Virus record (IMG/VR): IMGVR_UViG_2617270990_000005
Coordinates: 1 to 9,826 of that record
From: a virus
Lineage: Duplodnaviria > Heunggongvirae > Uroviricota > Caudoviricetes
DNA: 9,826 nt
Direction: 5' to 3' (one strand)
Below are positions 1 to 9,826 of this stretch, in pieces. The notes under the pieces were generated by a model. It made no database searches. It worked only from the letters and a program-made list of their open reading frames with translations, and was not told where the DNA came from. The first letter of the stretch is position 1; every line of letters begins with the position of its first letter. The position numbers and the translations under genes were made by a program.

Positions 1-23
1 TGGAGAGTGTTTTATCTGTGAAC

Positions 24-914
24 TCAGGCTGCCAGATCATCGTTTCCGATGGAAGCATAATAAGCTTTTTCTGCTTCTGCCGGAGGAGTATGGCCCAGCC
101 TTCCCAGCAATCGTCGATTGTTATACCAGTCCACCCACGTTAGTGTGGCCAGTTCCACTTCTGCACGGTTTTTCCAGCTCTTACGGTGTATTACCTCCGC
201 TTTGTAAAGACCATTGATGCTCTCAGCCATCGCGTTGTCATACGAGTCGCCTGTACTCCCTGTTGATGCCAGTAATCCGGCTTCTTTTAGTCGCTCCGTA
301 TAGGCCAGTGACACATACTGAGAGCCTTTATCGCTGTGATGGATGGTGCCAGACGGACGACGGGCCCACAACGCCTGCTCCAGCGCATCCAGCACGAATG
401 TCGTTTCCATAGACGATGAGACCCGCCACCCCACGATGTATCCGGCAAACACATCAATGATAAACGCCACATAGACGAAGCCCTGCCATGTGCTGACGTA
501 AGTAAAATCAGCCACCCACAGCTGGTCAGGTCGTTCTGCCACGAACTGACGGTTTACGCGGTCGCCTGCGGCAACGGCTTTCCGGCTGATGGTCGTACGG
601 ACCTTTTTACCCCGGAGAACACCGGCAAGTCCCATAACCGCCATGAGACGTGCCACTGTACATCTGGCCACCCTGATTCCTTCCCGTAACAACTGACGCC
701 AGACTTTACGCACACCGTACACCTGATGATTTTCATCGTATACGCGCTGTATCTCTCTCTTCAGCCAGTCGTCGTGCTGCGCACGGGCACTGCGTTTATC
801 CGGATGATGTCGCTGTTGCTGACAATGGTAATACGTTGACGGGGCAATATGCAGTTCGCTGCATACCGGTCCGACCCCGTACTGCTCACGCAGCTTATCC
901 AGCAGTGGCATCAT
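24..914 (-). CDS. IS3-family transposase OrfB (DDE integrase-like catalytic part), expected to be made as an OrfAB fusion by -1 frameshifting
   Basis: 296-aa ORF; I recognise the translation as near-identical to IS629/IS1203 OrfB (recalled, not searched). Start ATG (912..914) overlaps the orfA stop in the -1 frame. Confidence 0.9.
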
Positions 915-1237
915 TTTTTCCAGAGGCGGTCGAACTCCGCCTTCGCAAAATAAGCGGAAGCCTGGCGAAGGATATCGTTACTGCGGCGCAGTTCACGATT
1001 TTCACGTTCCAGCTCTTTCAGACGCTGACGTTCAGCGCTGGTGAGCCCACCATCACCGCCCCCGGTATCCCGCTCATGCTGGCGAACCCAGACACGCAGA
1101 GTCTCCGGCGTACAGCCAATCTTTGGGGCAATGGAACAAATTGCCGCCCACTGTGAGTCATATTCATCCTGACTTTCCAGAACCATACGAATCGCCCGCT
1201 GACGGACTTCGGGGGAAAAACGAGTATTTTTAGTCAT
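911..1237 (-). CDS. IS3-family transposase OrfA (helix-turn-helix / leucine-zipper DNA-binding subunit)
   Basis: 108-aa [25 protein letters not shown]...; matches my recollection of IS629 OrfA almost residue for residue. The [25 protein letters not shown] stretch is the leucine-zipper region typical of IS3 OrfA. Confidence 0.9.
914..919 (-). promoter_or_regulatory. Candidate -1 programmed frameshift site (A6 run) at the orfA/orfB overlap
   Basis: Plus-strand T6 at 914..919 is AAAAAA on the coding strand, immediately before the orfA TGA stop (911..913), with the orfB frame offset by -1. Exact slip site not verified. Confidence 0.5.
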
Positions 1238-1291
1238 CCTGTTTACCTCTTTCTCAGGGAGTTTAGTCTCCAGGATTTCCGGGGCGGTTCA

Positions 1292-2236
1292 GAGGAAGGA
1301 TCAGGCCGTACGCAGGTTATAAGGATGATGCTCACGGTATCGAGCACTGATGCCGTTACCCTGAAAGTTGATCCGTCCGTTGTGCTGGCAACCCGGCAGT
1401 ATGTTGATAGTGCTGTAATTGAGGTGAAAACCTATACAGACAACGCGATAAAAAAGCACGTTGACACCGCTAATCCGCATAGCCAGTACCTGTTGATTGA
1501 AAATGCTCTTAAAGAATTGATTAAGGCCGGGTTGGTTGGAGAGGCTATCAAAAACCTTGGTTTGGATAAAACAGTTCAATTAGCAGCCGATGCGTTACCT
1601 GCTTCTGGTGGGAGGGTTACTGGTGATGTGATTGTTGAAGGTATTATCTCAGCAGTCGGACACGAAATGATCGTGGAAAAAGAGAGTGGTTTTTCAGGTA
1701 TTCATATCAAAAATAAAAGCAGTGAAAATGGAAGTGCATGTGGTTTGGATTTTTCATTTGGTGGAGCAATTATGTCGTCGATTATTTGCGGCATAATGGG
1801 AAACGGCGCGAACTATATTGATTTTGCTTTATCTCCATCAGGGGAGATCTCCGATCGTCGAGTTAATGCATTCACAATGAATGCTGATGTGAAAAAATTG
1901 ATTTTTCAGAATGATTGGGGCATTCAGGGGTATGTGAAAAATACAGACTTTACTCAGGTAATGGCTGATGCCGGTTGGGTGCGTTTTCCAAATGGAATAA
2001 TTTTACAGTGGTGTTGGGGGAATACTGATGGTGGCGGCTGGGCTTCAGCCCCTTTTCCTATTGGTTGGCCTGTTCGCTGTTTTGGTATTTTGCCATGCAA
2101 TGTGGCTGGTGATGCAGCAGCGTCGGCGATTGCTGGAGTTAAAAGATTAAGCGATCGAGATATGCAGGTTTCTTTATTAGAAAGAACAGGCGTCGCTGCG
2201 TCAAAACCATTCTTTTGCTTTGGTGTGGGGTGTTAA
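1292..2236 (+). pseudogene. Tail-fibre protein, C-terminal (receptor-binding) fragment, 5'-truncated by the IS insertion; longest ATG-initiated ORF is 1325..2236
   Basis: Reading frame is open from the IS junction at 1292 through to stop at 2234..2236. Translation is tail-fibre-like in composition (Thr/Ser/Gly-rich, Trp/Cys-rich C-terminus with GWVRFPNGIILQW) and is followed 2 nt later by a tail-fibre assembly gene. 303 aa is short for a complete tail fibre. Assignment is by resemblance only. Confidence 0.55.
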
Positions 2237-2238
2237 TT

Positions 2239-2670
2239 ATGTTTAGTAATATATATTTCAGTGCTAAGAATAACTCATTCTTTTTTGAGTCAATGAAATC
2301 AGACTATGAAAAAACGAATACATGGCCTGATGACATTGTTGAAGTTGAATCTGATATTTATCAGAAATACACAGGAAGGCCGCCAGAAGGAAAAGGTAGA
2401 GGAGGCGACGCTTCCGGTCAGCCTGTATGGGTTGATGTATCAGAGCCTACAGCCGATCAGTTAATTGCGTTAGCTATACAGCAAAAAAAAGACTTGGCTG
2501 AAAATGCAGGTACAGAAATTGCGTGGCGGCAGGATGCGATTGAAGCTGGTATTTCAACCGATGATGAAGTTATTCAGCTTGCGAAGTGGAAGAAATATCG
2601 GGTGCTATTAATGCGTATTGACACATCAAAAGCCCCCGACATTATCTGGCCTGATATCCCTGAGGATTAA
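2239..2670 (+). CDS. Tail-fibre assembly chaperone (Tfa / P2 gpG-like)
   Basis: ATG at 2239 sits 2 nt after the tail-fibre stop, with a G-rich stretch (2226..2230) upstream. C-terminus ...KWKKYRVLLMRIDTSKAPDIIWPDIPED matches the Tfa-family C-terminal signature as I remember it. The six-frame ORF at 2215 begins with TTG and overlaps the upstream gene, so 2239 is the more likely start. Confidence 0.75.
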   Translation: MFSNIYFSAKNNSFFFESMKSDYEKTNTWPDDIVEVESDIYQKYTGRPPEGKGRGGDASGQPVWVDVSEPTADQLIALAIQQKKDLAENAGTEIAWRQDAIEAGISTDDEVIQLAKWKKYRVLLMRIDTSKAPDIIWPDIPED

Positions 2671-3635
2671 TTTGATAGGCTTTTTAGTCTAAAGTTTGCA
2701 ATTAAATTATCTTTAATGATATTAGCTATTGAATAGCTAATGCAAATAGTGCATGCGATTGTTGTTATGACTAACCAATCAGATGCAAATTGTTTTGCAA
2801 ACTGAATGGCATAGATTTGTATAAGATATATGTTTTTTGAGTGCTCGCGAATTGTGAAGGTGTTTTTTGTTTTCAGGGTGATATCTAGAACTTTTAAAAA
2901 AACAAAAACACCAGCGAATGGAAGTGAAAAAAGCATATCAAAGGTATATGTGCCATATGAATAATTTACGGATGCCTCAATGATGACCAAAATAATGGAA
3001 CCAATGAGTAAATATGTATTGTTATTTCTTATGTTATTTTTATTTATAAGGTATCCAAGCATAAACAATGGAAAACCCATGAAAAGACCGTTTCTGGAAA
3101 AGAAAACTGTAGCGAGAGACCATATGTCACGATTTATGTCAATGGAATAATTTGCGCGATATTGAAGTAACGTGCCGCACGTATAAAGTATGCAGCATAT
3201 GATTATTAATGTGCGATCTTTTAGCTTAGCTAAAAGTAATGTTAATAATGCCGATACTATCAGGGCAGGGAAAAACCATAAGTGCCAAAATCCAAATACT
3301 GCATTTAGAGATAAATATGTAAGGTCTGTCGCTAAAGGCTTACCCGCCCTAATAAAACCAACTAATCCTAGTATTATTGGTAAGTAAAGAAGCGTCCATA
3401 GAGCATAGGTTTTTATATTGTGAGAAAACCATTTTTTAATTTTATTTTTTTGCATTACAGAAAAATAAAAATATCCACTAGTAATGAAAAAGAATGGCAC
3501 TGCAATCCTTAGCAGTCCCTGGCAAGTAACATATCCTATATAATTACTGTTGCCGCCTAAAATGTCTGTGTGTATAAAAATGATACAAAACGCAAAGAAA
3601 AGTTTTGCGTAATCAATTGAGGAAAGGTTTTTCAT
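2667..3635 (-). CDS. Acyltransferase-3 family integral membrane protein (Oac/OafA-like putative O-antigen/LPS O-acetyltransferase); prophage cargo gene
   Basis: About 10 predicted hydrophobic helices. Contains the family-typical IAVPFFFITSGYF motif and an N-terminal helix ending in His (IDYAKLFFAFCIIFIH). Coding sequence is conspicuously AT-rich. Start chosen at ATG 3633..3635 (MKNLSSID...), which gives a family-typical short N-terminus; the maximal ORF starts at 3704 and neither start has a clear Shine-Dalgarno. Stop codon overlaps the Tfa stop (convergent). Confidence 0.8.
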   Translation of the reverse strand: MKNLSSIDYAKLFFAFCIIFIHTDILGGNSNYIGYVTCQGLLRIAVPFFFITSGYFYFSVMQKNKIKKWFSHNIKTYALWTLLYLPIILGLVGFIRAGKPLATDLTYLSLNAVFGFWHLWFFPALIVSALLTLLLAKLKDRTLIIICCILYTCGTLLQYRANYSIDINRDIWSLATVFFSRNGLFMGFPLFMLGYLINKNNIRNNNTYLLIGSIILVIIEASVNYSYGTYTFDMLFSLPFAGVFVFLKVLDITLKTKNTFTIREHSKNIYLIQIYAIQFAKQFASDWLVITTIACTICISYSIANIIKDNLIANFRLKSLSN

Positions 3636-3761
3636 ATAGAGTCTAGTCGCGCAATTAGGAAAAATTGTGGTTATTTTACTTACAAAAATTCTAAGGACAA
3701 TCATTTAGTCTGCACAATTTACACATGATTGAACAAAATTAGAGCTAGGTCTCTTGTTGCT

Positions 3762-3805
3762 CCCCTCGGTGAAAACCAATCCGAGGGGTATATTTTTACT
3801 TGTTT
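3762..3805 (+). terminator. Intrinsic-terminator-like hairpin, oriented for the + strand
   Basis: 8-bp GC-rich stem CCCCTCGG (3762..3769) pairs with CCGAGGGG (3781..3788) around an 11-nt loop, followed on the + strand by the T-rich tract TATATTTTTACTTGTTT (3789..3805). On the - strand the 3' flank is not U-rich. Confidence 0.4.
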
Positions 3806-4292
3806 AAAACAGACTGGATGCGGCGGCGCTGATATTATTCAGCGCTGAGTTGGCTGTGTTTTGCAGGTTGCCGAGTAAATCACTCACTGATGAAGACTGG
3901 AGGCTTTCGCGCAGGTCTTCATCCTGCCTTTGAAACGTGATCGTAAATTCTATTTTCTTCGGCTCCCCATACTGGTCAAATTCAGTATCGGTGGTCTGAA
4001 GCTGCGTTATCGAATACATGCCATAGATCCGCCCGGTGCCGCTGATAAGAGGCCAGGGGCGTCCGGTGTAGGCCTGTGTATCGAGCACAGTTAGACTCAC
4101 CTTACCGCCGGTCACTGATGGGTACAAAACACCGGATAAGGTAATCTGATCGTCACCTGCACCAATGTATTGCCACTTTGCCGATCGGTTTATGCGCTCG
4201 TTCTTTACATGCCGCCATGTCTTTGACTGCTGTAATTGTTGGTGGGGAATGGTTTTTAACTCAAAGACGAACATTCCGTAAACCATCATCAT
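3804..4292 (-). CDS. U: Phage tail protein U (P2 gpU-like)
   Basis: 162-aa ORF MMMVYGMFVFELKTIPHQQLQQSKTWRH... resembles the P2 gpU N-terminus as I recall it. AGGAGAG Shine-Dalgarno lies 8-9 nt upstream, and the gene starts 12 nt after the tape-measure stop. Confidence 0.85.
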   Translation of the reverse strand: MMMVYGMFVFELKTIPHQQLQQSKTWRHVKNERINRSAKWQYIGAGDDQITLSGVLYPSVTGGKVSLTVLDTQAYTGRPWPLISGTGRIYGMYSITQLQTTDTEFDQYGEPKKIEFTITFQRQDEDLRESLQSSSVSDLLGNLQNTANSALNNISAAASSLF

Positions 4293-4304: not shown

Positions 4305-7300
4305 CTAATCTTTGTCTCTGAAACTGCTACCAGAGCGGGAACGCTTGTTAAGTTCTGCCCCAACTGCATCAGTCACCATCCGTGCAATGTCGCGGGCGTC
4401 GTTGCTGAGATCGCCGTGCATATGAATGTGAATATGTATTTCATCAGGAGCGGTGTTTTGCGCCGGTTTGCTGGCTTGTTTACTGGATTGCCCGCTAATA
4501 GCCTGTACTTCAACTGCCGGTTTAATCGGTGCTGATGCCGCCGCGATAACCGGGCGCGCGCTAAGTTGGGCCAGGTTTGCGCCTGGGGGTGATTGTGCTT
4601 CCTGCCATGCGCCGTGGACGGCTAATGCGCGGGGCAGATTCTTAAACACGATATCGCCAGGGCCGATCCGCTTTTTGGTTGCATCCAGCATCCCGCCGGT
4701 ATTGTCCGCAATTTTCTGTAACCGCCGTTGAGTTCCCGTATCAACAGCAATCACTGGTGATGGTGGGGCGATAGGTGGCGCGGTTACTGCTTTCATATCG
4801 ACAGTGAGCGTGCCAACCTTGTCCTGCAGCATAGCCAATCCTGCCGGTGTGAGTTCCTTCTGCACTTTCTCCGCTTTTGCTTTCGCCGCTTCAATCCCGG
4901 ACGGAATCAGCCCCAGCTTTTCAAGTATCCAGCCAACCATTTTGGCCAATCCAGTCAGAGGTAACATTAGCCCCTGAATTGCCAGGCCAAACACTTTGCC
5001 GAACGTCTCCCCAGCGCTTGCGCATTTATCCAATGTCTCTTTGCTGGTCGTCATTGGTGAAAGCAGGTTGCTGAACCACTGCCACAACTGAGAAACGGCA
5101 TTTGAGATCACATCAAAGACGGGGGCCAGTCCGGCGAAGGCATCACGGAACGGCGTAAGCGCCTGCATTACACCGGCAAAGAAGCCCGCAAAGAAGGCTT
5201 TGATCGGCTCCCAGAATCGCCAGATAAGCAACCCTGTGGCAATGAAGGCCGCGCCAATCAGCCCGATCGGGCTTAACAGCAATGACAGCGCGCCGCCGAG
5301 CATCGAGAGGGCCGAGCTAGCGATCCCCATGATTGCAGGTATGCCGGTCAGGCGAAGCAGGAGACTACCAAGCCCTTTTACAATTCCGCCCAGGGCGGCA
5401 CCTGGTGAGATAAACGCGGCGGCAAGCAGTCCTCTCAATGGGGCAAGCGCGCCAGCCAGTTTCCCGGCGTTGCCGGTCATTCTACTGAAGACGACACCCC
5501 AGCCACGGATGCCGCCAAGCGGCCCGGAAATAACGCCAGCCAGGCGGCTGAACAGTGTCACCGCGCCACCCAGCCCGCTCCCGCTGGTTAGCAGGGCAAA
5601 GCCGAGTTGAAGTTTTGCCAGTGGCCCCAGAAGTAAGCCAATAGCCAGGGACGTTGCGCCAATCCCGGCGGTGAGGGCCAGCACACTGCCGCCAACAGCC
5701 AGAAGGGTTTTTGATAGCTGCGGATTCTTATTCGCCCATTCAGTCATCACGCCGATCGTGCCGGTCAGTGCCTGGGTGAGTTTTCGCAGTGCGCCGTCCG
5801 CCAGTTCTTCAATCTGGATACGGAATGCTTCCCAGGCGCTATCGAGTTCTTTTAGATCCCCGCCCAGGTTGTCCGCCATTTTTTTTGCGACGGTAGCGGA
5901 TTCACCGGCAGCGCCCTGAAGTTCTTTTGTGAGCTTTTGTAGTTCTCCCGAGCCTGCCGCCTGTACCAGCGTCTGGAGGCCCACAAAGGCCTCTTCACCG
6001 GCGATATTTTTGAAGAAAGATACCTGATCAACCTGCCCGTATTTCTGTGTGGCTTTGAAAAGGTCTAACAGTACCGTTTCCATCGGGCGCATTTTCCCGT
6101 TGGCGTCGGCAACCGACACGCCTAGCTCTTTCAGAGCATCAGCCGCGGCTTTTGGTGGTGAAGCAAGGCGGGATAGACTGGAACGTAATGCTGTACCCGC
6201 GTCACTGCCGCGCAGACCGTTATTGGCAAGCATACCCGCCATAGCGGATGCCTCTTCCAGGCTAATACCCAGATTAGCCGCCACTGGCCCCGCGTATTTC
6301 ATTGTGTCGCCCAGGGCGCGCAGGTCGGTATTGGTACGGGTAAATGCGGCTGTTAGCGTATCGCCAACCCTGTCCATCTGATCTGATGACAGCTTGAATT
6401 GCGTCAGGATGTTTGAACCGATATCAGCGGACTCACCCAGATCCATGCCACCGGCTAGCGCCATATTCAGAACGCCAGGCAGCGCAGCCTGAATTGACTG
6501 TGGTGTAAAGCCAGCCATTGCCAGGAAGGCTTGCCCGCTGGCGGCGTCTCGCGTGGTAAATGCGGTTTCAGCGCCAAGTTTTTTGGCCTGGGCGCGCAGG
6601 GCGGCAAACTGTTCATCGCCTTTATCCAGGCGGGTCAGTGCGCCTACGCGCGACATTTCCTCATCAAAACCCACGGCAGGGGCCAGGAAGCGTCCGGCAG
6701 CGTAGCCCGCTCCCGCGCTTGCGCCAATCGCCACCGCGCCGCCGGTGCGCAATTTGCCCGCTGTGGCGCTCAGACGGTCATAACGGGCGCGCGCGTTGGT
6801 GACTGCGGCAAGTTGTCGCCGTTCTCTCTCAAGCGTCTGGTTGTATTGCTCAGTGCGTCTGATAGCGCTTTGAATTGTGCGATCGCCGCCCGCCAGTGAA
6901 ACGCCGTGCGCGCGCAGCGCCTGGGACGCTTGCTGGAGTTTTGCTGTCTCCTGTGACCGGCTGGCATTCAGGCGATCAAGTTTCGCTGCCAGTGCCGTCA
7001 TGCGCTCGCGCTGTGCGTCGGTTAGTACCGTGCCGTTTTTCTGTGCTTTATTCAGGCCGTCAAAGGCTCGCTGTGTTGTGGTGAGTTGCTGGGATGTCTT
7101 TTTAACGCGCTCATTCAGGCGGTTGAATGCCTGGGATTGCGTTTCCAGATCTTTGATAGACGATTGTGTTTTTTTGAGGGATTCAGATAAGCCGCCCACT
7201 GAGTTGCGGGCGGCATTTACCGGGCGGGTTAACTTATCAATCGCACTGAAGGCGACACGGATATTAAGGTCTTTCATCTTCACTGTTTCCGCTTCGGATA

Positions 7301-7313
7301 GCCGCCCGTTCAC
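4305..7313 (-). CDS. T: Tail tape measure protein (P2 gpT-like)
   Basis: About 1000 aa with an N-terminal coiled-coil-like Gln/Ala/Arg-rich region, a long central Gly/Ala/Leu-rich hydrophobic block and a C-terminal domain. Sits between E/E' and U as in P2. The 7313 start is GTG, preceded by GAGGTGA at ~9 nt; an in-frame ATG at 7275..7277 is an alternative. Confidence 0.85.
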   Translation of the reverse strand: MNGRLSEAETVKMKDLNIRVAFSAIDKLTRPVNAARNSVGGLSESLKKTQSSIKDLETQSQAFNRLNERVKKTSQQLTTTQRAFDGLNKAQKNGTVLTDAQRERMTALAAKLDRLNASRSQETAKLQQASQALRAHGVSLAGGDRTIQSAIRRTEQYNQTLERERRQLAAVTNARARYDRLSATAGKLRTGGAVAIGASAGAGYAAGRFLAPAVGFDEEMSRVGALTRLDKGDEQFAALRAQAKKLGAETAFTTRDAASGQAFLAMAGFTPQSIQAALPGVLNMALAGGMDLGESADIGSNILTQFKLSSDQMDRVGDTLTAAFTRTNTDLRALGDTMKYAGPVAANLGISLEEASAMAGMLANNGLRGSDAGTALRSSLSRLASPPKAAADALKELGVSVADANGKMRPMETVLLDLFKATQKYGQVDQVSFFKNIAGEEAFVGLQTLVQAAGSGELQKLTKELQGAAGESATVAKKMADNLGGDLKELDSAWEAFRIQIEELADGALRKLTQALTGTIGVMTEWANKNPQLSKTLLAVGGSVLALTAGIGATSLAIGLLLGPLAKLQLGFALLTSGSGLGGAVTLFSRLAGVISGPLGGIRGWGVVFSRMTGNAGKLAGALAPLRGLLAAAFISPGAALGGIVKGLGSLLLRLTGIPAIMGIASSALSMLGGALSLLLSPIGLIGAAFIATGLLIWRFWEPIKAFFAGFFAGVMQALTPFRDAFAGLAPVFDVISNAVSQLWQWFSNLLSPMTTSKETLDKCASAGETFGKVFGLAIQGLMLPLTGLAKMVGWILEKLGLIPSGIEAAKAKAEKVQKELTPAGLAMLQDKVGTLTVDMKAVTAPPIAPPSPVIAVDTGTQRRLQKIADNTGGMLDATKKRIGPGDIVFKNLPRALAVHGAWQEAQSPPGANLAQLSARPVIAAASAPIKPAVEVQAISGQSSKQASKPAQNTAPDEIHIHIHMHGDLSNDARDIARMVTDAVGAELNKRSRSGSSFRDKD

Positions 7314-7500
7314 GCCAGGCTATCACCTCACTCAGGGACATAGTGAAAACCTCTGAGGGCGGCCAGTTGAAAATAACTGCTATATCAGCAACCAGATCAT
7401 CGATCAGGTCAAAGTGGGGCGCGTTTACTCGCTCTCCGTCTCCGTCTCGTTCTTCGTGCCAGGCTCCTTCGGCGCTAAAAAAGGCGTGAGCGCCTCGCAA
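7264..7500 (-). CDS. E' extension frame of the tail assembly chaperone, expressed only as the E+E' fusion (7736 to 7264) after a -1 frameshift
   Basis: ORF in the -1 frame relative to gpE; overlaps the 3' end of E and the 5' end of T. The sequence after the slippery site reads FFSAEGAWHEERDGD..., continuous with gpE ...EALTPF. Confidence 0.7.
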   Translation of the reverse strand: MRGAHAFFSAEGAWHEERDGDGERVNAPHFDLIDDLVADIAVIFNWPPSEVFTMSLSEVIAWRERAAIRSGNSEDERP

Positions 7501-7736
7501 AGTTCAACAAAGTCAGATGTTGCCATTTCGCTGATTTCTTTGAGCTTCAGGCGCGGGGAAGTGCAGCGGGTTAGCAGGGTGCTGATGCTGTCCACGTCCA
7601 TATTCATCACGTTCACCAGGCGAAGGCCGCGCAGGGTACCAGCCTGTTTCACTTCGTCAGTGATCGTGATGGTTTTGATTTCGTTGCCGTCGCGTTTAAT
7701 CGGGCGTGTCAGTGTTACGGTGTTTTCTTCGGTCAT
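7425..7736 (-). CDS. E: Tail assembly chaperone (P2 gpE-like)
   Basis: 103-aa acidic ORF between tube and tape-measure genes. GGAG Shine-Dalgarno 9 nt upstream of ATG 7734..7736. Carries the conserved frameshift arrangement with the downstream E' frame. Confidence 0.85.
   Translation of the reverse strand: MTEENTVTLTRPIKRDGNEIKTITITDEVKQAGTLRGLRLVNVMNMDVDSISTLLTRCTSPRLKLKEISEMATSDFVELCEALTPFLAPKEPGTKNETETESE
7476..7482 (-). promoter_or_regulatory. Slippery heptamer T_TTT_TTA for the -1 programmed ribosomal frameshift of the tail chaperone (E to E+E')
   Basis: gpE zero-frame codons are CCT TTT TTA GCG (P F L A); plus strand 7476..7482 is TAAAAAA. A -1 slip gives TTT TTT AGC..., which is exactly the E' frame. 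Confidence 0.7.
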
Positions 7737-8302: not shown

Positions 8303-9309
8303 TTAGTTACTCCCCAGAGACGAAAACGCGCCTTCAAAATATTCATCGGTGAACGTCTGGATCAGCGTCAAATCTTCCATCGGTGGCACCGGCGTGTACT
8401 TGTAGCGGATCGCCACTTTGCCCTGAATCAGGTTTGCGGTTCCGTTGTCCACGATGTCAAACCAGGCTTCCGCGCCAAGCAACTTGCCAGCTGTGACCAG
8501 TGCACTGAGTTTCTTGTTAATCGCGCTCACCACGTCTTTCACGTTGGTCGGGGTGAGTGGCCCGTCAATGGTTTCAAATTGCGCCTCTGCGATGGTGTCC
8601 GCCAGGATTTGCGCCGTGCGGGTGTACACCTCAAACACAAATTCATTGGTGTCTGTGGTGCGGTTACCCCAGAAACGGAAGCCATTACGCTTGATGATGG
8701 TGGTGATTTCGGCGTTGTTCAGCGTCTGTGCGTCACTGTCTTCAGCCTGAAGCGCCCAGAAAACATCCTTCGAAATGCCAAGCGCATTGCTGACGGCAAT
8801 GTTAGATAGCGAGCGGTGCCAGCCGTACTGGTTATCAATAAACGCGCGCAGCCCTACCGCATAGGCCGGGGCCGGGAATACTTCATTTTCCCCGGACACC
8901 TGGTTATATGCGATGTAGTCAGGCCAGATCAGCGTGAGTTCGCGTGATGCGAAGGTTTTACGATACGCGAGGGCTTCCGCCAGCGTCTTGCAGCCGTTAC
9001 AGCTTGCATAAACATAGGCGCGAAGCTGTTTGGCGATCACACAAAGCTGTGCCGTCACTTCTTCGGTGTCGTATTCAGGAACCGCCAGGATGCGCGGTCG
9101 ATACTGTGTCTTCTGTTCGGCAGTCAGAAGCGCATACATGCCGGTGTAGTTACCTTCAGCATCAGAGCCACCGATAATCAGTTGCACTTGCGTTTCCGCT
9201 TCTGCGTCGCCTTCCAGCGGCTTGGCTGCGGCGACACGAACAACAATGACTTTCGCGCTTGCCTGGTCTGAAATGGCTTTCAGCGTTTTGTACAGCGTCC
9301 CTGTTTTCC
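8303..9309 (-). pseudogene. FI: Contractile tail sheath protein (P2 FI-like), 5'-truncated by IS insertion
   Basis: Frame is open from stop (8303..8305) up to the IS junction at about 9309/9310 with no plausible start codon. The translation begins mid-protein (GKTGTLYKTLKAISDQ...), aligning with P2 FI from roughly residue 65 onward (from memory). The six-frame ORF 8303..9187 begins at an internal GTG. Confidence 0.85.
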
Positions 9310-9826
9310 CATAAGCGCTAACTTAAGGGTTGAACCATCTGAAGAATGCGACGCCTCGGTGCCTCGTTAAGACGATGCCTCGCGTTCTTCAATTGCGTTT
9401 TGTAGGCTGTCAGGGATACTGTCCCACGAATGGCCACCTGTAAGCTCCAGATGACCATTTTTGTTATTCTCCACAACGAGTTAGTTCTTCTTTTCGGATC
9501 CGGCACTTCTGGGGGGGAAATCCAGCGATGGCTGGATTATGTCGTCAATTAAAAATGCGGCGAGTAGATTAGCAAATATCCACGCTTTCGCGAGTTCAGG
9601 TTCCTTTGCACGCAAAGCATCCAGGTGCAGCAAACTTTTGAGCCGCTTAAAAGCCAGTTCAATTTGCCATCGCAGACGGTAACAATCAGCCACTTGCTCT
9701 GCTGAATATTCATCTTCCGGTAATGATGTTAGCAATAGCACATGGCCCGCTGCTTCCAGCGTTTCCGCCTGAACTACTCGTCCTTTTCGACGATTCTCGC
9801 TGAGCAGTCGGGTTTTACTGATTAAT
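9310..9826 (-). mobile_element. IS4-family insertion sequence, IS186-like; partial, continues past the window end
   Basis: 9310..9332 reads CATAAGCGCTAACTTAAGGGTTG, which I recall as the IS186 terminal inverted repeat (not database-checked). It is adjacent to a CCCTGTTTTCC flank (9299..9309) and contains the C-terminal part of a transposase gene. Confidence 0.7.
9481..9825 (-). CDS. IS4-family DDE transposase, C-terminal part (5' end outside window)
   Basis: Frame is open from the window edge to stop at 9481..9483. Contains YRLRWQIELAFKRLK, an exact fit to the IS4-family Y-(2)-R-(3)-E-(6)-K signature. Confidence 0.8.
   Translation of the reverse strand, partial: LISKTRLLSENRRKGRVVQAETLEAAGHVLLLTSLPEDEYSAEQVADCYRLRWQIELAFKRLKSLLHLDALRAKEPELAKAWIFANLLAAFLIDDIIQPSLDFPPRSAGSEKKN

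What the first reader, a model, noticed from the sequence alone, without database searches (positions are those of the whole stretch)
2667..3635. AT-rich acyltransferase-3 membrane protein gene as prophage cargo next to the receptor-binding module
This is the only gene in the window that is not phage-structural or IS-derived. Its base composition (roughly 30% GC by eye) is far from the GC-rich tail genes, so it looks like a recently acquired moron. It encodes a ~10-helix membrane protein with acyltransferase-3 hallmarks (VPFFFITSGY motif, His-terminated first helix), the family that includes Sf6 Oac and Salmonella OafA. Sitting beside the tail-fibre/Tfa pair, it could O-acetylate the same surface polysaccharide the phage uses as receptor, giving seroconversion and superinfection exclusion. 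The usual N-terminal Arg/RG motif appears replaced (IDYAKLFF), so substrate and activity cannot be inferred and it may be a divergent subfamily. Whether this exact protein is already described I cannot tell without a search.
Basis: partly seen in the sequence, partly recalled or inferred. Interest (0 to 1): 0.65.

Follow-up and report, generated by a model that had tools for sequence, protein, structure and literature searches.

The report
Prophage-borne membrane acyltransferase beside tail fibre
An intact, AT-rich gene for a ten-helix membrane acyltransferase (AT3 family) sits as self-transcribed cargo next to the tail-fibre genes of a broken P2-like prophage; this kind of cargo is already known (NeaT, Oac), but this rare lineage is uncharacterised and its target sugar is unknown.

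Summary

- The TM1 motif is not replaced: D8-x-x-K11-x10-H22 fits the published R/K-X10-H motif. The deviant motif is RXXR in TMH3, which reads H72-N-I-K75.
- Low GC does not show recent acquisition. Homologues only 57-72% identical are all 31-36% GC.

New findings:
- Homologues sit convergent to, and 4-7 nt overlapping, the tail-fibre assembly gene in at least five myovirus tail backbones with two unrelated fibre tips.
- They carry a conserved promoter-like block of about 100 nt.
- Close alleles are under purifying selection (pN/pS about 0.14).

The closest studied relative is NeaT of E. coli CFT073 (same slot and orientation, 19% identity at profile level). The protein is already deposited as "acyltransferase family protein". 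Substrate and any phage-exclusion role remain untested. Verdict: a new member of a known kind, of moderate interest.

The parts
2667..3635 (-). AT3 (Acyl_transf_3) membrane acyltransferase CDS, 322 aa. The stop codon shares the palindrome TTAA (2667-2670) with the stop of tfa.
3673..3700 (-). Sigma-70-like promoter of the AT3 gene: TTGTCC, 16 nt, TAAAAT.
   Evidence: Consensus scan. The -10 (within AGTAAAAT) and the TTGT of the -35 are invariant, with the same 16-nt spacing, in five homologous loci whose further flanks are unrelated. Function is inferred, not shown.
3636..3737 (-). Upstream block of about 100 nt that travels with the AT3 ORF (leader, promoter and a conserved ATTGTG..GTAAAT..ATGTG segment).
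   Evidence: MAFFT alignment of the upstream regions of WIN, L004, L019, L022 and L023. Similarity stops about 105 nt upstream of the ATG.
3762..3788 (.). G+C-rich hairpin (CCCCTCGG / CCGAGGGG) 15 nt after the gpU stop. An A-run lies on one side, which gives a T-run on the + strand. It is the likely terminator closing the FI-U operon and stopping H-G read-through.
   Evidence: Sequence. RNA folds of -17.8 and -18.8 kcal/mol. An analogous hairpin sits at the same place after gpU in phage phiT5282H, which has no AT3. Inferred.
2239..2670 (+). Tail-fibre assembly gene (tfa / P2 G-like), convergent with the AT3 gene and overlapping it by 4 nt.
   Evidence: Pfam Caudo_TAP at 114 bits. PGAP annotation in ES1.
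1325..2236 (+). C-terminal 303 residues of tail fibre H (residues 126-428 of the intact protein). The N-terminal part is cut off by the IS3-family element.
   Evidence: 100% identical to residues 126-428 of H in L010. Pfam Gp53-like_C and the end of Phage_tail_fib.
3804..4292 (-). gpU tail protein, the last gene of the FI-FII-E-T-U block, which lies upstream of the AT3 cassette on the same strand.
   Evidence: Pfam Phage_P2_GpU at 134 bits.

Best explanation
The gene encodes a functional stand-alone AT3 (TmAT-fold) membrane acyltransferase. A P2-like temperate phage carries it as a lysogenic-conversion cassette.

**Proposed mechanism**
- In the lysogen the gene is transcribed from its own sigma-70-type promoter. 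That promoter lies downstream of the gpU terminator and points against the late tail-fibre operon (inferred).
- The protein inserts in the inner membrane with ten helices, N and C termini inside (modelled).
- It binds an acyl-CoA, most likely acetyl-CoA, from the cytoplasmic side. Binding would use D8/K11 (TMH1), F49/G54 (TMH2), K75 (TMH3), G194 (TMH6) and S266/Y270 (TMH9).
- It passes the acyl group at the periplasmic face, near the invariant His22, onto a hydroxyl of an envelope glycan. This step is inferred from work on OafA, OafB, Oac and HGSNAT.

**Likely target.** The most likely acceptor is LPS (O-antigen repeat or core) during or after export. That would change the surface that phages and antibodies see. 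I put this target at about 0.35-0.4 on its own. The general claim, an active envelope-glycan acyltransferase expressed as prophage cargo, is much firmer.
For: **Family and fold**
- The PF01757 match is above threshold and nearly full length.
- The confident AF2 model has ten TM helices.

**Conserved residues.** D8, K11, H22, F49, G54, G194, S266 and Y270 are retained. H22 and G194 are invariant in 112 relatives, and these positions match the published motifs.

**Selection.** Among five close alleles there are 14 synonymous and 7 conservative non-synonymous polymorphic codons, giving pN/pS of about 0.14.

**Own transcription unit.** The promoter-like site is conserved across five unrelated flanks, and a terminator hairpin lies between gpU and the cassette.

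**Cargo status.** The same slot is empty in phiT5282H and holds a DNA invertase in P88. The gene is a constant feature of this prophage type at several chromosomal sites.

**Link to surface and host-range functions**
- It always abuts tfa, in at least five tail backbones.
- Sf6 shows the same geometry, with tailspike and oac convergent.
- The Pantoea stewartii homologue lies between hisI and gnd.

**Precedents.** Phage AT3 proteins that acetylate O-antigen and block adsorption include Oac, OafB/BTP1 and PhiV10 (review PMC9558356).
Against: - No experiment exists on this protein.
- The first Arg of the TMH3 RXXR motif is essential in Oac, OafA and OafB. Here it is His72, and it is Q/H/S/T in 8 of 9 close relatives. 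A His that is 84% conserved in the wider subfamily is Gln273 in all nine close-family sequences, the window protein included. The donor or the chemistry may therefore differ.
- AT3 similarity does not follow fibre-tip similarity. This argues against tight coupling to the phage's own receptor.
- NeaT, the nearest studied relative, gave virulence and aggregation phenotypes with no identified substrate. The paper reports no LPS analysis.
- No Shine-Dalgarno sequence is visible before the ATG.
- AT-rich DNA in E. coli is often silenced by H-NS (general knowledge).
Confidence: 0.6

Rival explanations
1. It is a host-fitness factor of the NeaT type. An active AT3 acylates a non-LPS envelope component (enterobacterial common antigen, osmoregulated periplasmic glucans, peptidoglycan or an exopolysaccharide). 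This changes aggregation and host interaction, with no role in phage receptor masking.
For: - At profile level the subfamily is homologous to NeaT over its full length (hhalign 98.3%, E 1e-14, 294 columns).
- NeaT occupies the same slot in the same orientation and overlaps tfa.
- NeaT affected bacteraemia fitness, swarming, aggregation and curli/cellulose (PMC3573123).
- The AT3 lineage is independent of fibre-tip type.
- E. coli AT3 paralogues are known to act on ECA and OPG (review PMC9558356; otherwise my own knowledge).
Against: - Identity to NeaT is only 19% at profile level, and pairwise BLASTP gives 26.6 bits, so function cannot be transferred.
- The invariable placement against the tail-fibre module in five backbones has no obvious reason if the function is unrelated to phage-host surface recognition. 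It may, however, simply be a permissive moron site.
Confidence: 0.25
2. It is a TmAT-fold protein that no longer transfers acetate from acetyl-CoA. It either uses another donor or acyl group, or acts as a transporter or modulator like the poorly understood VanT membrane domain.
For: - The best NCBIfam matches are VanT membrane domains (68.6 bits, far below their cutoffs), and tblastn picks up vanT genes on plasmids.
- TMH3-Arg is lost and H273 is replaced by Q in the whole close clade.
Against: - The catalytic His22 and the DxxK, FxxxxG, TMH6-Gly and SxxxY positions are all retained.
- Lys replaces the TMH1 Arg in bona fide acyltransferase families (Cas1_AcylT, TraX; PMC12423673).
- The VanT domain is itself now regarded as a probable acyltransferase.
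Confidence: 0.08
3. It is silent or decaying passenger DNA with no current function, retained only because the prophage remnant has not yet been deleted.
For: - The prophage in the window is defective. The fibre gene is cut by an IS3-family element and the sheath gene is truncated next to an IS4-family fragment.
- The gene is AT-rich and lacks a visible ribosome-binding site.
- It is rare, found in 1 of 5426 complete E. coli genomes.
Against: - The ORF is intact and identical to the allele found in many intact prophages.
- pN/pS is about 0.14 among alleles.
- Homologues kept the full length, the key residues and the promoter block through 30-40% protein divergence.
Confidence: 0.05

Closest known systems
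NeaT of E. coli CFT073 (P2-like prophage phi-b0847; Wiles et al. 2013, PMC3573123)
   Same: - It has a PF01757 AT3-only architecture and similar size (343 aa).
- It is about 30% GC in a 51% GC genome.
- It lies in P2 'moron position 2' next to the tail-fibre assembly gene, in opposite orientation, overlapping the tfa 3' end.
- Most of its relatives are in Firmicutes and Bacteroidetes.
- Profile-level homology covers the full length (hhalign 98.3%).
- In the homologue L019 the slot is exactly G|FI, as for neaT.
   Different: - Pairwise similarity is limited to one motif (26.6 bits), so this is a separate AT3 lineage and an independent acquisition.
- NeaT matches phrog_3333 strongly (E 1.8e-22), while the window protein barely does (E 5.6e-5).
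- NeaT has R-X10-H and a basic TMH3 segment.
- In the window's phage type the FI-U block is inverted, so the neighbour on the other side is gpU rather than FI.
Oac (OacA) of Shigella phage Sf6 and related seroconverting AT3-only O-antigen acetyltransferases (OacB/C/D, PhiV10 Oac)
   Same: - It is a stand-alone 10-TMH AT3 protein encoded by a temperate phage.
- The gene is convergent with, and immediately downstream of, the receptor-binding protein gene (tailspike in Sf6).
- It shares the R/K-X10-H and FFXISG-type motifs.
   Different: - There is no significant pairwise similarity (21.9 bits), and the profile match covers only TM1-3.
- tblastn of the window protein against 50,697 phage records finds nothing at E 1e-5.
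- Oac's essential RXXR (R73/R75/R76) corresponds to H72-N-I-K75 here.
- The host phage is a myovirus with fibres, not a podovirus with an O-antigen-cleaving tailspike.
VanT N-terminal membrane domain (AT3 domain of the serine racemase of vanC/E/G/L/N clusters) and stand-alone Clostridia/Firmicutes AT3 proteins
   Same: These are the closest annotated sequence relatives outside the small enterobacterial clade: 25-36% identity, NCBIfam vanT-CELN at 68.6 bits over the membrane domain. They share the VPFFF-SGY, R181-N, G194 and E220 signatures.
   Different: - There is no racemase domain.
- The score is far below the VanT family cutoffs (900 and 675 bits).
- The function of the VanT membrane domain is itself unresolved (PMC12423673).
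HGSNAT / GWT1 (solved TmAT-superfamily structures)
   Different: They are eukaryotic enzymes at 13-14% identity, with extra domains and different acceptors. They are useful only as a mechanistic template.

Membership tests
Acyltransferase-3 (AT3, Pfam PF01757) | Significant match to the family profile over most of its length | tested here: met
   68.5 bits against a gathering score of 31, E 7.1e-19, profile positions 2-322 of 326.
Acyltransferase-3 (AT3, Pfam PF01757) | Ten-transmembrane-helix TmAT fold, N and C termini cytoplasmic | tested here: met
   - The AF2 model has pLDDT 91 and pTM 0.91 with ten long helices.
- K/R distribution is 17 inside and 6 outside.
- This is a prediction, not an experimental topology.
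Acyltransferase-3 (AT3, Pfam PF01757) | TMH1 D-x-x-R/K-x10-H motif (essential Arg/Lys and His) | tested here: met
   D8-Y-A-K11-x10-H22 is present. K11 aligns with the Arg of Oac. The column is K 71 / R 38 and H is invariant in 112 relatives. Motif definitions come from PMC7448272 and PMC12423673.
Acyltransferase-3 (AT3, Pfam PF01757) | TMH2 FFXISG / FxxxxG motif | tested here: met
   F49-F-I-T-S-G54 is present. F49 occurs in 111 of 112 and G54 in 98 of 112 relatives.
Acyltransferase-3 (AT3, Pfam PF01757) | TMH3 RXXR motif (both Arg essential in Oac, OafA, OafB) | tested here: not met
   The aligned segment is H72-N-I-K75. Position 72 is R or K in 85% of 112 relatives but Q/H/S/T in 8 of the 9 close-clade members. 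K75 is invariant in the clade. The literature calls the motif highly but not absolutely conserved, so this does not exclude membership.
Acyltransferase-3 (AT3, Pfam PF01757) | TMH6 conserved Gly and TMH9 SxxxY | tested here: met
   G194 is invariant in 112 relatives. S266-K-N-I-Y270 is present, with S in 82/112 and Y or F in 111/112. Motifs as in PMC12423673.
Acyltransferase-3 (AT3, Pfam PF01757) | Acyl-CoA-dependent acyl transfer to an extracytoplasmic acceptor | not testable with these tools
   This needs biochemistry or genetics.
Phage seroconverting O-antigen O-acetyltransferases (Oac/OafB type) | Sequence relationship to a characterised member | tested here: not met
   BLASTP against Sf6 Oac gives 21.9 bits. 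hhalign reaches 80% probability over 77 columns only. tblastn finds no hit in 50,697 phage records.
Phage seroconverting O-antigen O-acetyltransferases (Oac/OafB type) | Encoded by a temperate phage next to its receptor-binding genes, as an accessory gene | tested here: met
   It lies between tfa and gpU in intact prophages. The slot is empty or differently filled in related phages. Sf6 has the same convergent geometry.
Phage seroconverting O-antigen O-acetyltransferases (Oac/OafB type) | O-acetylation of the host O-antigen, with a change of serotype and block of adsorption by the same phage | not testable with these tools
   There are no data. The lack of covariation between the AT3 and the fibre tip is indirect evidence against strict coupling.
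NeaT (nomadically evolved acyltransferase) | Orthology to CFT073 NeaT | tested here: not met
   BLASTP gives 26.6 bits over 19 residues. Only profile-level homology is seen. blastn of the window gene against 5426 E. coli genomes finds one genome, ES1; CFT073 is in the collection and did not match.
NeaT (nomadically evolved acyltransferase) | AT-rich AT3 gene in the P2 moron slot after the tail-fibre assembly gene, in opposite orientation | tested here: met
   Shown for the window and ES1, for L019 where the slot is G|FI, and for CFT073. GC is 32% here against 30% for neaT.

The most novel reading that the evidence does not exclude
The unit is a self-contained mobile cassette: a regulatory block of about 100 nt plus the AT3 ORF. 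It is anchored to the conserved 3' end of tail-fibre assembly genes and spreads between unrelated myovirus tail modules whatever their fibre tip. Its clade-specific loss of the TMH3 Arg and of His273 would reflect a different donor or acceptor from the classical O-antigen acetylases. One possibility is modification of a conserved envelope glycan such as LPS core or ECA. That would give lysogens broad, serotype-independent protection against other phages.
Probability: 0.15. Interest if true: 0.55.

Novelty: new member of a known kind. Interest (0 to 1): 0.33.

Why it matters
Phage-borne AT3 enzymes change what phages, antibodies and vaccines see on enterobacterial surfaces. Examples are the Shigella and Salmonella serotype factors and the NeaT virulence phenotype. 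This lineage is rare, occurring in 1 of 5426 complete E. coli genomes, and is absent from 50,697 deposited phage genomes. It is nevertheless conserved, under purifying selection, and always placed against the tail-fibre assembly gene.

If its acceptor were identified, it would add a new specificity to the small set of characterised stand-alone AT3 enzymes. It would also test whether the RXXR motif is truly required. As it stands, the finding is a correct annotation of an ordinary type of prophage cargo, not a new kind of system.

Tried and rejected
- **Direct DNA and protein searches of phage records.** These covered the AT3 gene, NeaT and the tail block. They returned nothing or only weak metagenomic hits, so no deposited phage could serve as an annotated reference. 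gpU had to be used to find the nearest phages.
- **Sequence search of the PDB**: no hit.
- **PADLOC defence models**: no match, so the gene is not a catalogued defence gene.
- **Orthology to neaT** was considered and rejected.
- **The 345-aa upstream start** was considered and rejected.
- **Scan of GTDB species representatives**: only 30%-identical Rhodobacter genes turned up, which tells nothing about function.
- **Phase-variation signals.** I looked by eye for Dam GATC pairs like those of gtr/oafB in the conserved upstream block. There are none in the window copy, so I did not pursue it.
- **Rfam**: only the IS3 frameshift pseudoknot was found.
- **Substrate inference.** I could not work out the substrate from the host O-serotype, because only one carrier genome is available complete.
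Full report
**1. What is in the sequence**

The window holds one long ORF on the minus strand at 2667-3704. I take that start as correct for four reasons.
- PGAP annotates the same 969-nt CDS in E. coli ES1.
- All homologues are 319-322 aa.
- A promoter-like site lies inside the 23-codon extension.
- The extension is closed by a stop in the homologous locus L004.

The gene is 32.1% GC (GC3 29.7%). The tail genes gpU, T, E, FII and FI are 49-57% GC, and the tail-fibre tip and tfa are 41-44%.

Everything else in the window with a family match is IS-derived or phage tail:
- IS3-family orfA/orfB with its ALIL frameshift pseudoknot;
- a tail-fibre fragment and Tfa;
- gpU, the tape measure, gpE, the tube and a truncated sheath;
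- an IS4-family transposase fragment.

The two additions are that the gene is on the minus strand and that one motif was misread (section 2).

**2. What the protein is**

Family and fold:
- Pfam Acyl_transf_3 matches at 68.5 bits against a cutoff of 31, almost end to end.
- NCBIfam gives only far sub-threshold matches to VanT membrane domains.
- An AlphaFold2 model built on 112 relatives is confident (pLDDT 91.0, pTM 0.91) and shows ten long helices.
- Charge distribution fits an N-in/C-in topology.
- No PDB sequence matches and Foldseek is uninformative.

Motifs, checked against the published definitions (PMC7448272, PMC9833829, PMC12423673):
- **TMH1:** D8-x-x-K11-x10-H22.
- **TMH2:** F49-x4-G54, within VPFFFITSGY.
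- **TMH6:** G194.
- **TMH9:** S266-x3-Y270.

His22 and Gly194 are invariant in 112 relatives.

In fact Lys11 aligns with the Arg of Oac, and Lys is the commoner residue in this subfamily (71 K, 38 R).

The real deviation is the TMH3 RXXR motif. The aligned segment reads H72-N-I-K75. Position 72 is basic in 85% of the wider subfamily but Q/H/S/T in eight of the nine members of the close clade. A His that is 84% conserved in the wider subfamily is Gln273 in all nine.

**3. Where it lives**

The exact protein is already in NCBI as 'acyltransferase family protein [Escherichia coli]' (for example KDT28319.1). It occurs on many assemblies, but in only 1 of 5426 complete RefSeq E. coli genomes, by both megablast and blastn. 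One IMG/VR contig carries it.

In every case it sits in the same P2-like prophage. In ES1 and several runs that prophage is complete, from integrase to ogr, and it is inserted at different chromosomal sites.

The nearest deposited phages are Peduoviridae of the genera Novemvirus (phiT5282H) and Xuanwuvirus (P88), with gpU 72-76% identical. In these phages the FI-FII-E-T-U block is normally inverted relative to H-G. The slot between gpU and tfa is empty in phiT5282H and holds a DNA invertase in P88. That makes the AT3 gene dispensable cargo in a variable slot.

In the window the prophage is defective. H lacks its first 125 codons next to the IS3-family element. The sheath gene lacks about 100 N-terminal codons next to the IS4-family fragment.

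**4. The cassette and its linkage to tfa**

Homologues of 57-73% identity (P0002-P0007) were located on contigs. In each of the four located homologues (P0003, P0004, P0005, P0007), as in the window-type prophage, the gene is convergent with a tail-fibre assembly gene and overlaps its 3' end by 4-7 nt. In the window the two stop codons share the palindrome TTAA at 2667-2670. The backbones differ:
- the inverted-block type (the window itself);
- the classical P2 order, with the gene between G and FI (L019);
- two other myovirus baseplate and tail modules (L022, L023);
- a remnant flanked by DinI- and UmuD-like genes (L004).

Two unrelated fibre tips are involved. One is a Gp53-like_C tip with a short Tfa. 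The other ends in '...NIAFNLLVRAA' and has a 196-aa Tfa. AT3 identity does not follow fibre identity: L004 and L022 have fibres 87% identical but AT3s only 60% identical, while L010 and L019 have unrelated tips but AT3s 69% identical.

Upstream, similarity between loci extends only about 105 nt. That stretch contains an invariant AGTAAAAT and a TTGT 16 nt further up. This is the TTGTCC-16-TAAAAT site found by the promoter scan.

A G+C-rich hairpin directly after gpU (3762-3788) has a counterpart at the same place in phiT5282H. It probably closes the FI-U operon and stops H-G read-through. The unit is therefore a promoter-plus-ORF cassette, which is a 'moron' in the strict sense.

Other observations on the lineage:
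- A 46%-identical homologue is chromosomal in Pantoea stewartii, between hisI and gnd.
- All six homologous genes are 31-36% GC in surroundings of 48-55% GC, despite deep divergence. Low GC is therefore a maintained property and not evidence of recent arrival.
- Close alleles show 14 synonymous and 7 conservative non-synonymous polymorphic codons, giving pN/pS of about 0.14.

**5. How it most likely works**

*Shown by computation:* family membership, fold, retention of the acyl-CoA pore and catalytic His positions, cargo status, a conserved promoter-like element, and purifying selection.

*Inferred from work on Oac, OafA/OafB, OatA and HGSNAT:* the protein takes an acyl-CoA from the cytoplasm into a central pore and transfers the acyl group at the periplasmic face onto an envelope glycan.

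*Inferred from context:* it is expressed in the lysogen and changes the cell surface. LPS (O-antigen or core) is the most likely acceptor. The grounds are the phage precedents, the position beside the receptor-binding module and the his-gnd location in Pantoea. I give this target only about 0.35-0.4.

The main rival is a NeaT-like host-fitness role on another glycan. The independence from fibre type and the altered RXXR motif and H273 leave room for a different donor or acceptor.

**6. Comparison with what is known**

The closest studied case is NeaT of CFT073. It is a PF01757 protein of 30% GC in the P2 slot after the tail-fibre assembly gene, in opposite orientation, and it is needed for fitness in bacteraemia. 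Its substrate is unknown (PMC3573123).

The window protein is not a NeaT orthologue: BLASTP gives 26.6 bits, and only the profile-level comparison shows homology (98.3%). Nor is it an Oac relative. PHROGs places it only weakly in the O-acetyltransferase family that NeaT matches strongly. It is absent from PADLOC.

At least two very different AT3 lineages have therefore been captured in the same place and orientation against tfa.

**7. Verdict**

The finding is real and correctly classed as an AT3 prophage cargo gene. The kind is known and the sequence is already deposited, though uncharacterised. Three points go beyond routine annotation:
- the strict tfa-anchored cassette structure across several tail backbones;
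- the conserved promoter block;
- the clade-specific loss of the first RXXR arginine.

Novelty: a new member of a known kind. Interest: about 0.33.

Noticed in passing
window 1-1300 (minus strand ORFs 24-914 and 911-1237; Rfam hit 840-956): An IS3-family element (orfA HTH_Tnp_1, orfB rve, ALIL frameshift pseudoknot at 121.5 bits) abuts the tail-fibre gene. Only residues 126-428 of the fibre remain. The window starts inside the IS, so I cannot tell whether the rest of the prophage lies beyond it.
   Followed up: partly
window 8303-9187 and 9318-9741: The sheath gene FI lacks about 100 N-terminal codons (294 aa against 396-400 aa in intact prophages). It is followed by an IS4-family (DDE_Tnp_1) transposase fragment. 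This is a second break in the prophage.
   Followed up: partly
L009 1-4385 (Logan SRR36207453): In another sample, the sheath gene of the same prophage is truncated (262 aa) next to Mu-like transposition genes (MuA- and MuB-like, Kil). This looks like a Mu-like phage inserted into the P2-like prophage.
   Followed up: no
window 1325-2670: The fibre tip and tfa are 41-44% GC, clearly below the 49-57% of the other tail genes. This is consistent with the receptor-binding module itself being a mosaic import.
   Followed up: no
L016 6525-7112 (phage P88) and L017 6489-6644 (phiT5282H): The slot between gpU and the tail-fibre assembly gene holds a DNA invertase, with an invertible fibre segment, in P88. 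It is empty (155 nt with a terminator hairpin) in phiT5282H. The slot is a hotspot for host-range-related cargo.
   Followed up: partly
window 3705-3737 (minus strand) and the aligned parts of L004, L019, L022, L023: A conserved segment upstream of the -35 (ATTGTG..GTAAAT..ATGTG; TGTGTACACA in L019) might be a regulator-binding site. I did not recognise a match to a known operator.
   Followed up: no
window 7264-7500 and 7425-7736 (minus strand): Two overlapping ORFs upstream of the tape measure resemble the P2 E / E+E' frameshift pair. ES1 annotates a 'GpE family' CDS and a 'tail assembly protein' here.
   Followed up: no
L006-L008 8001-9011 (Pantoea stewartii): A 46%-identical AT3 homologue of 32% GC sits alone between hisI and an amino-acid-binding protein gene, a few kb from gnd. 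It is outside any prophage, so the lineage also exists as a chromosomal islet.
   Followed up: partly
L025-L029 (Rhodobacter capsulatus / R. viridis): The only hits in the GTDB species representatives were 28-30%-identical AT3 genes in Rhodobacter. Their context was not examined.
   Followed up: no
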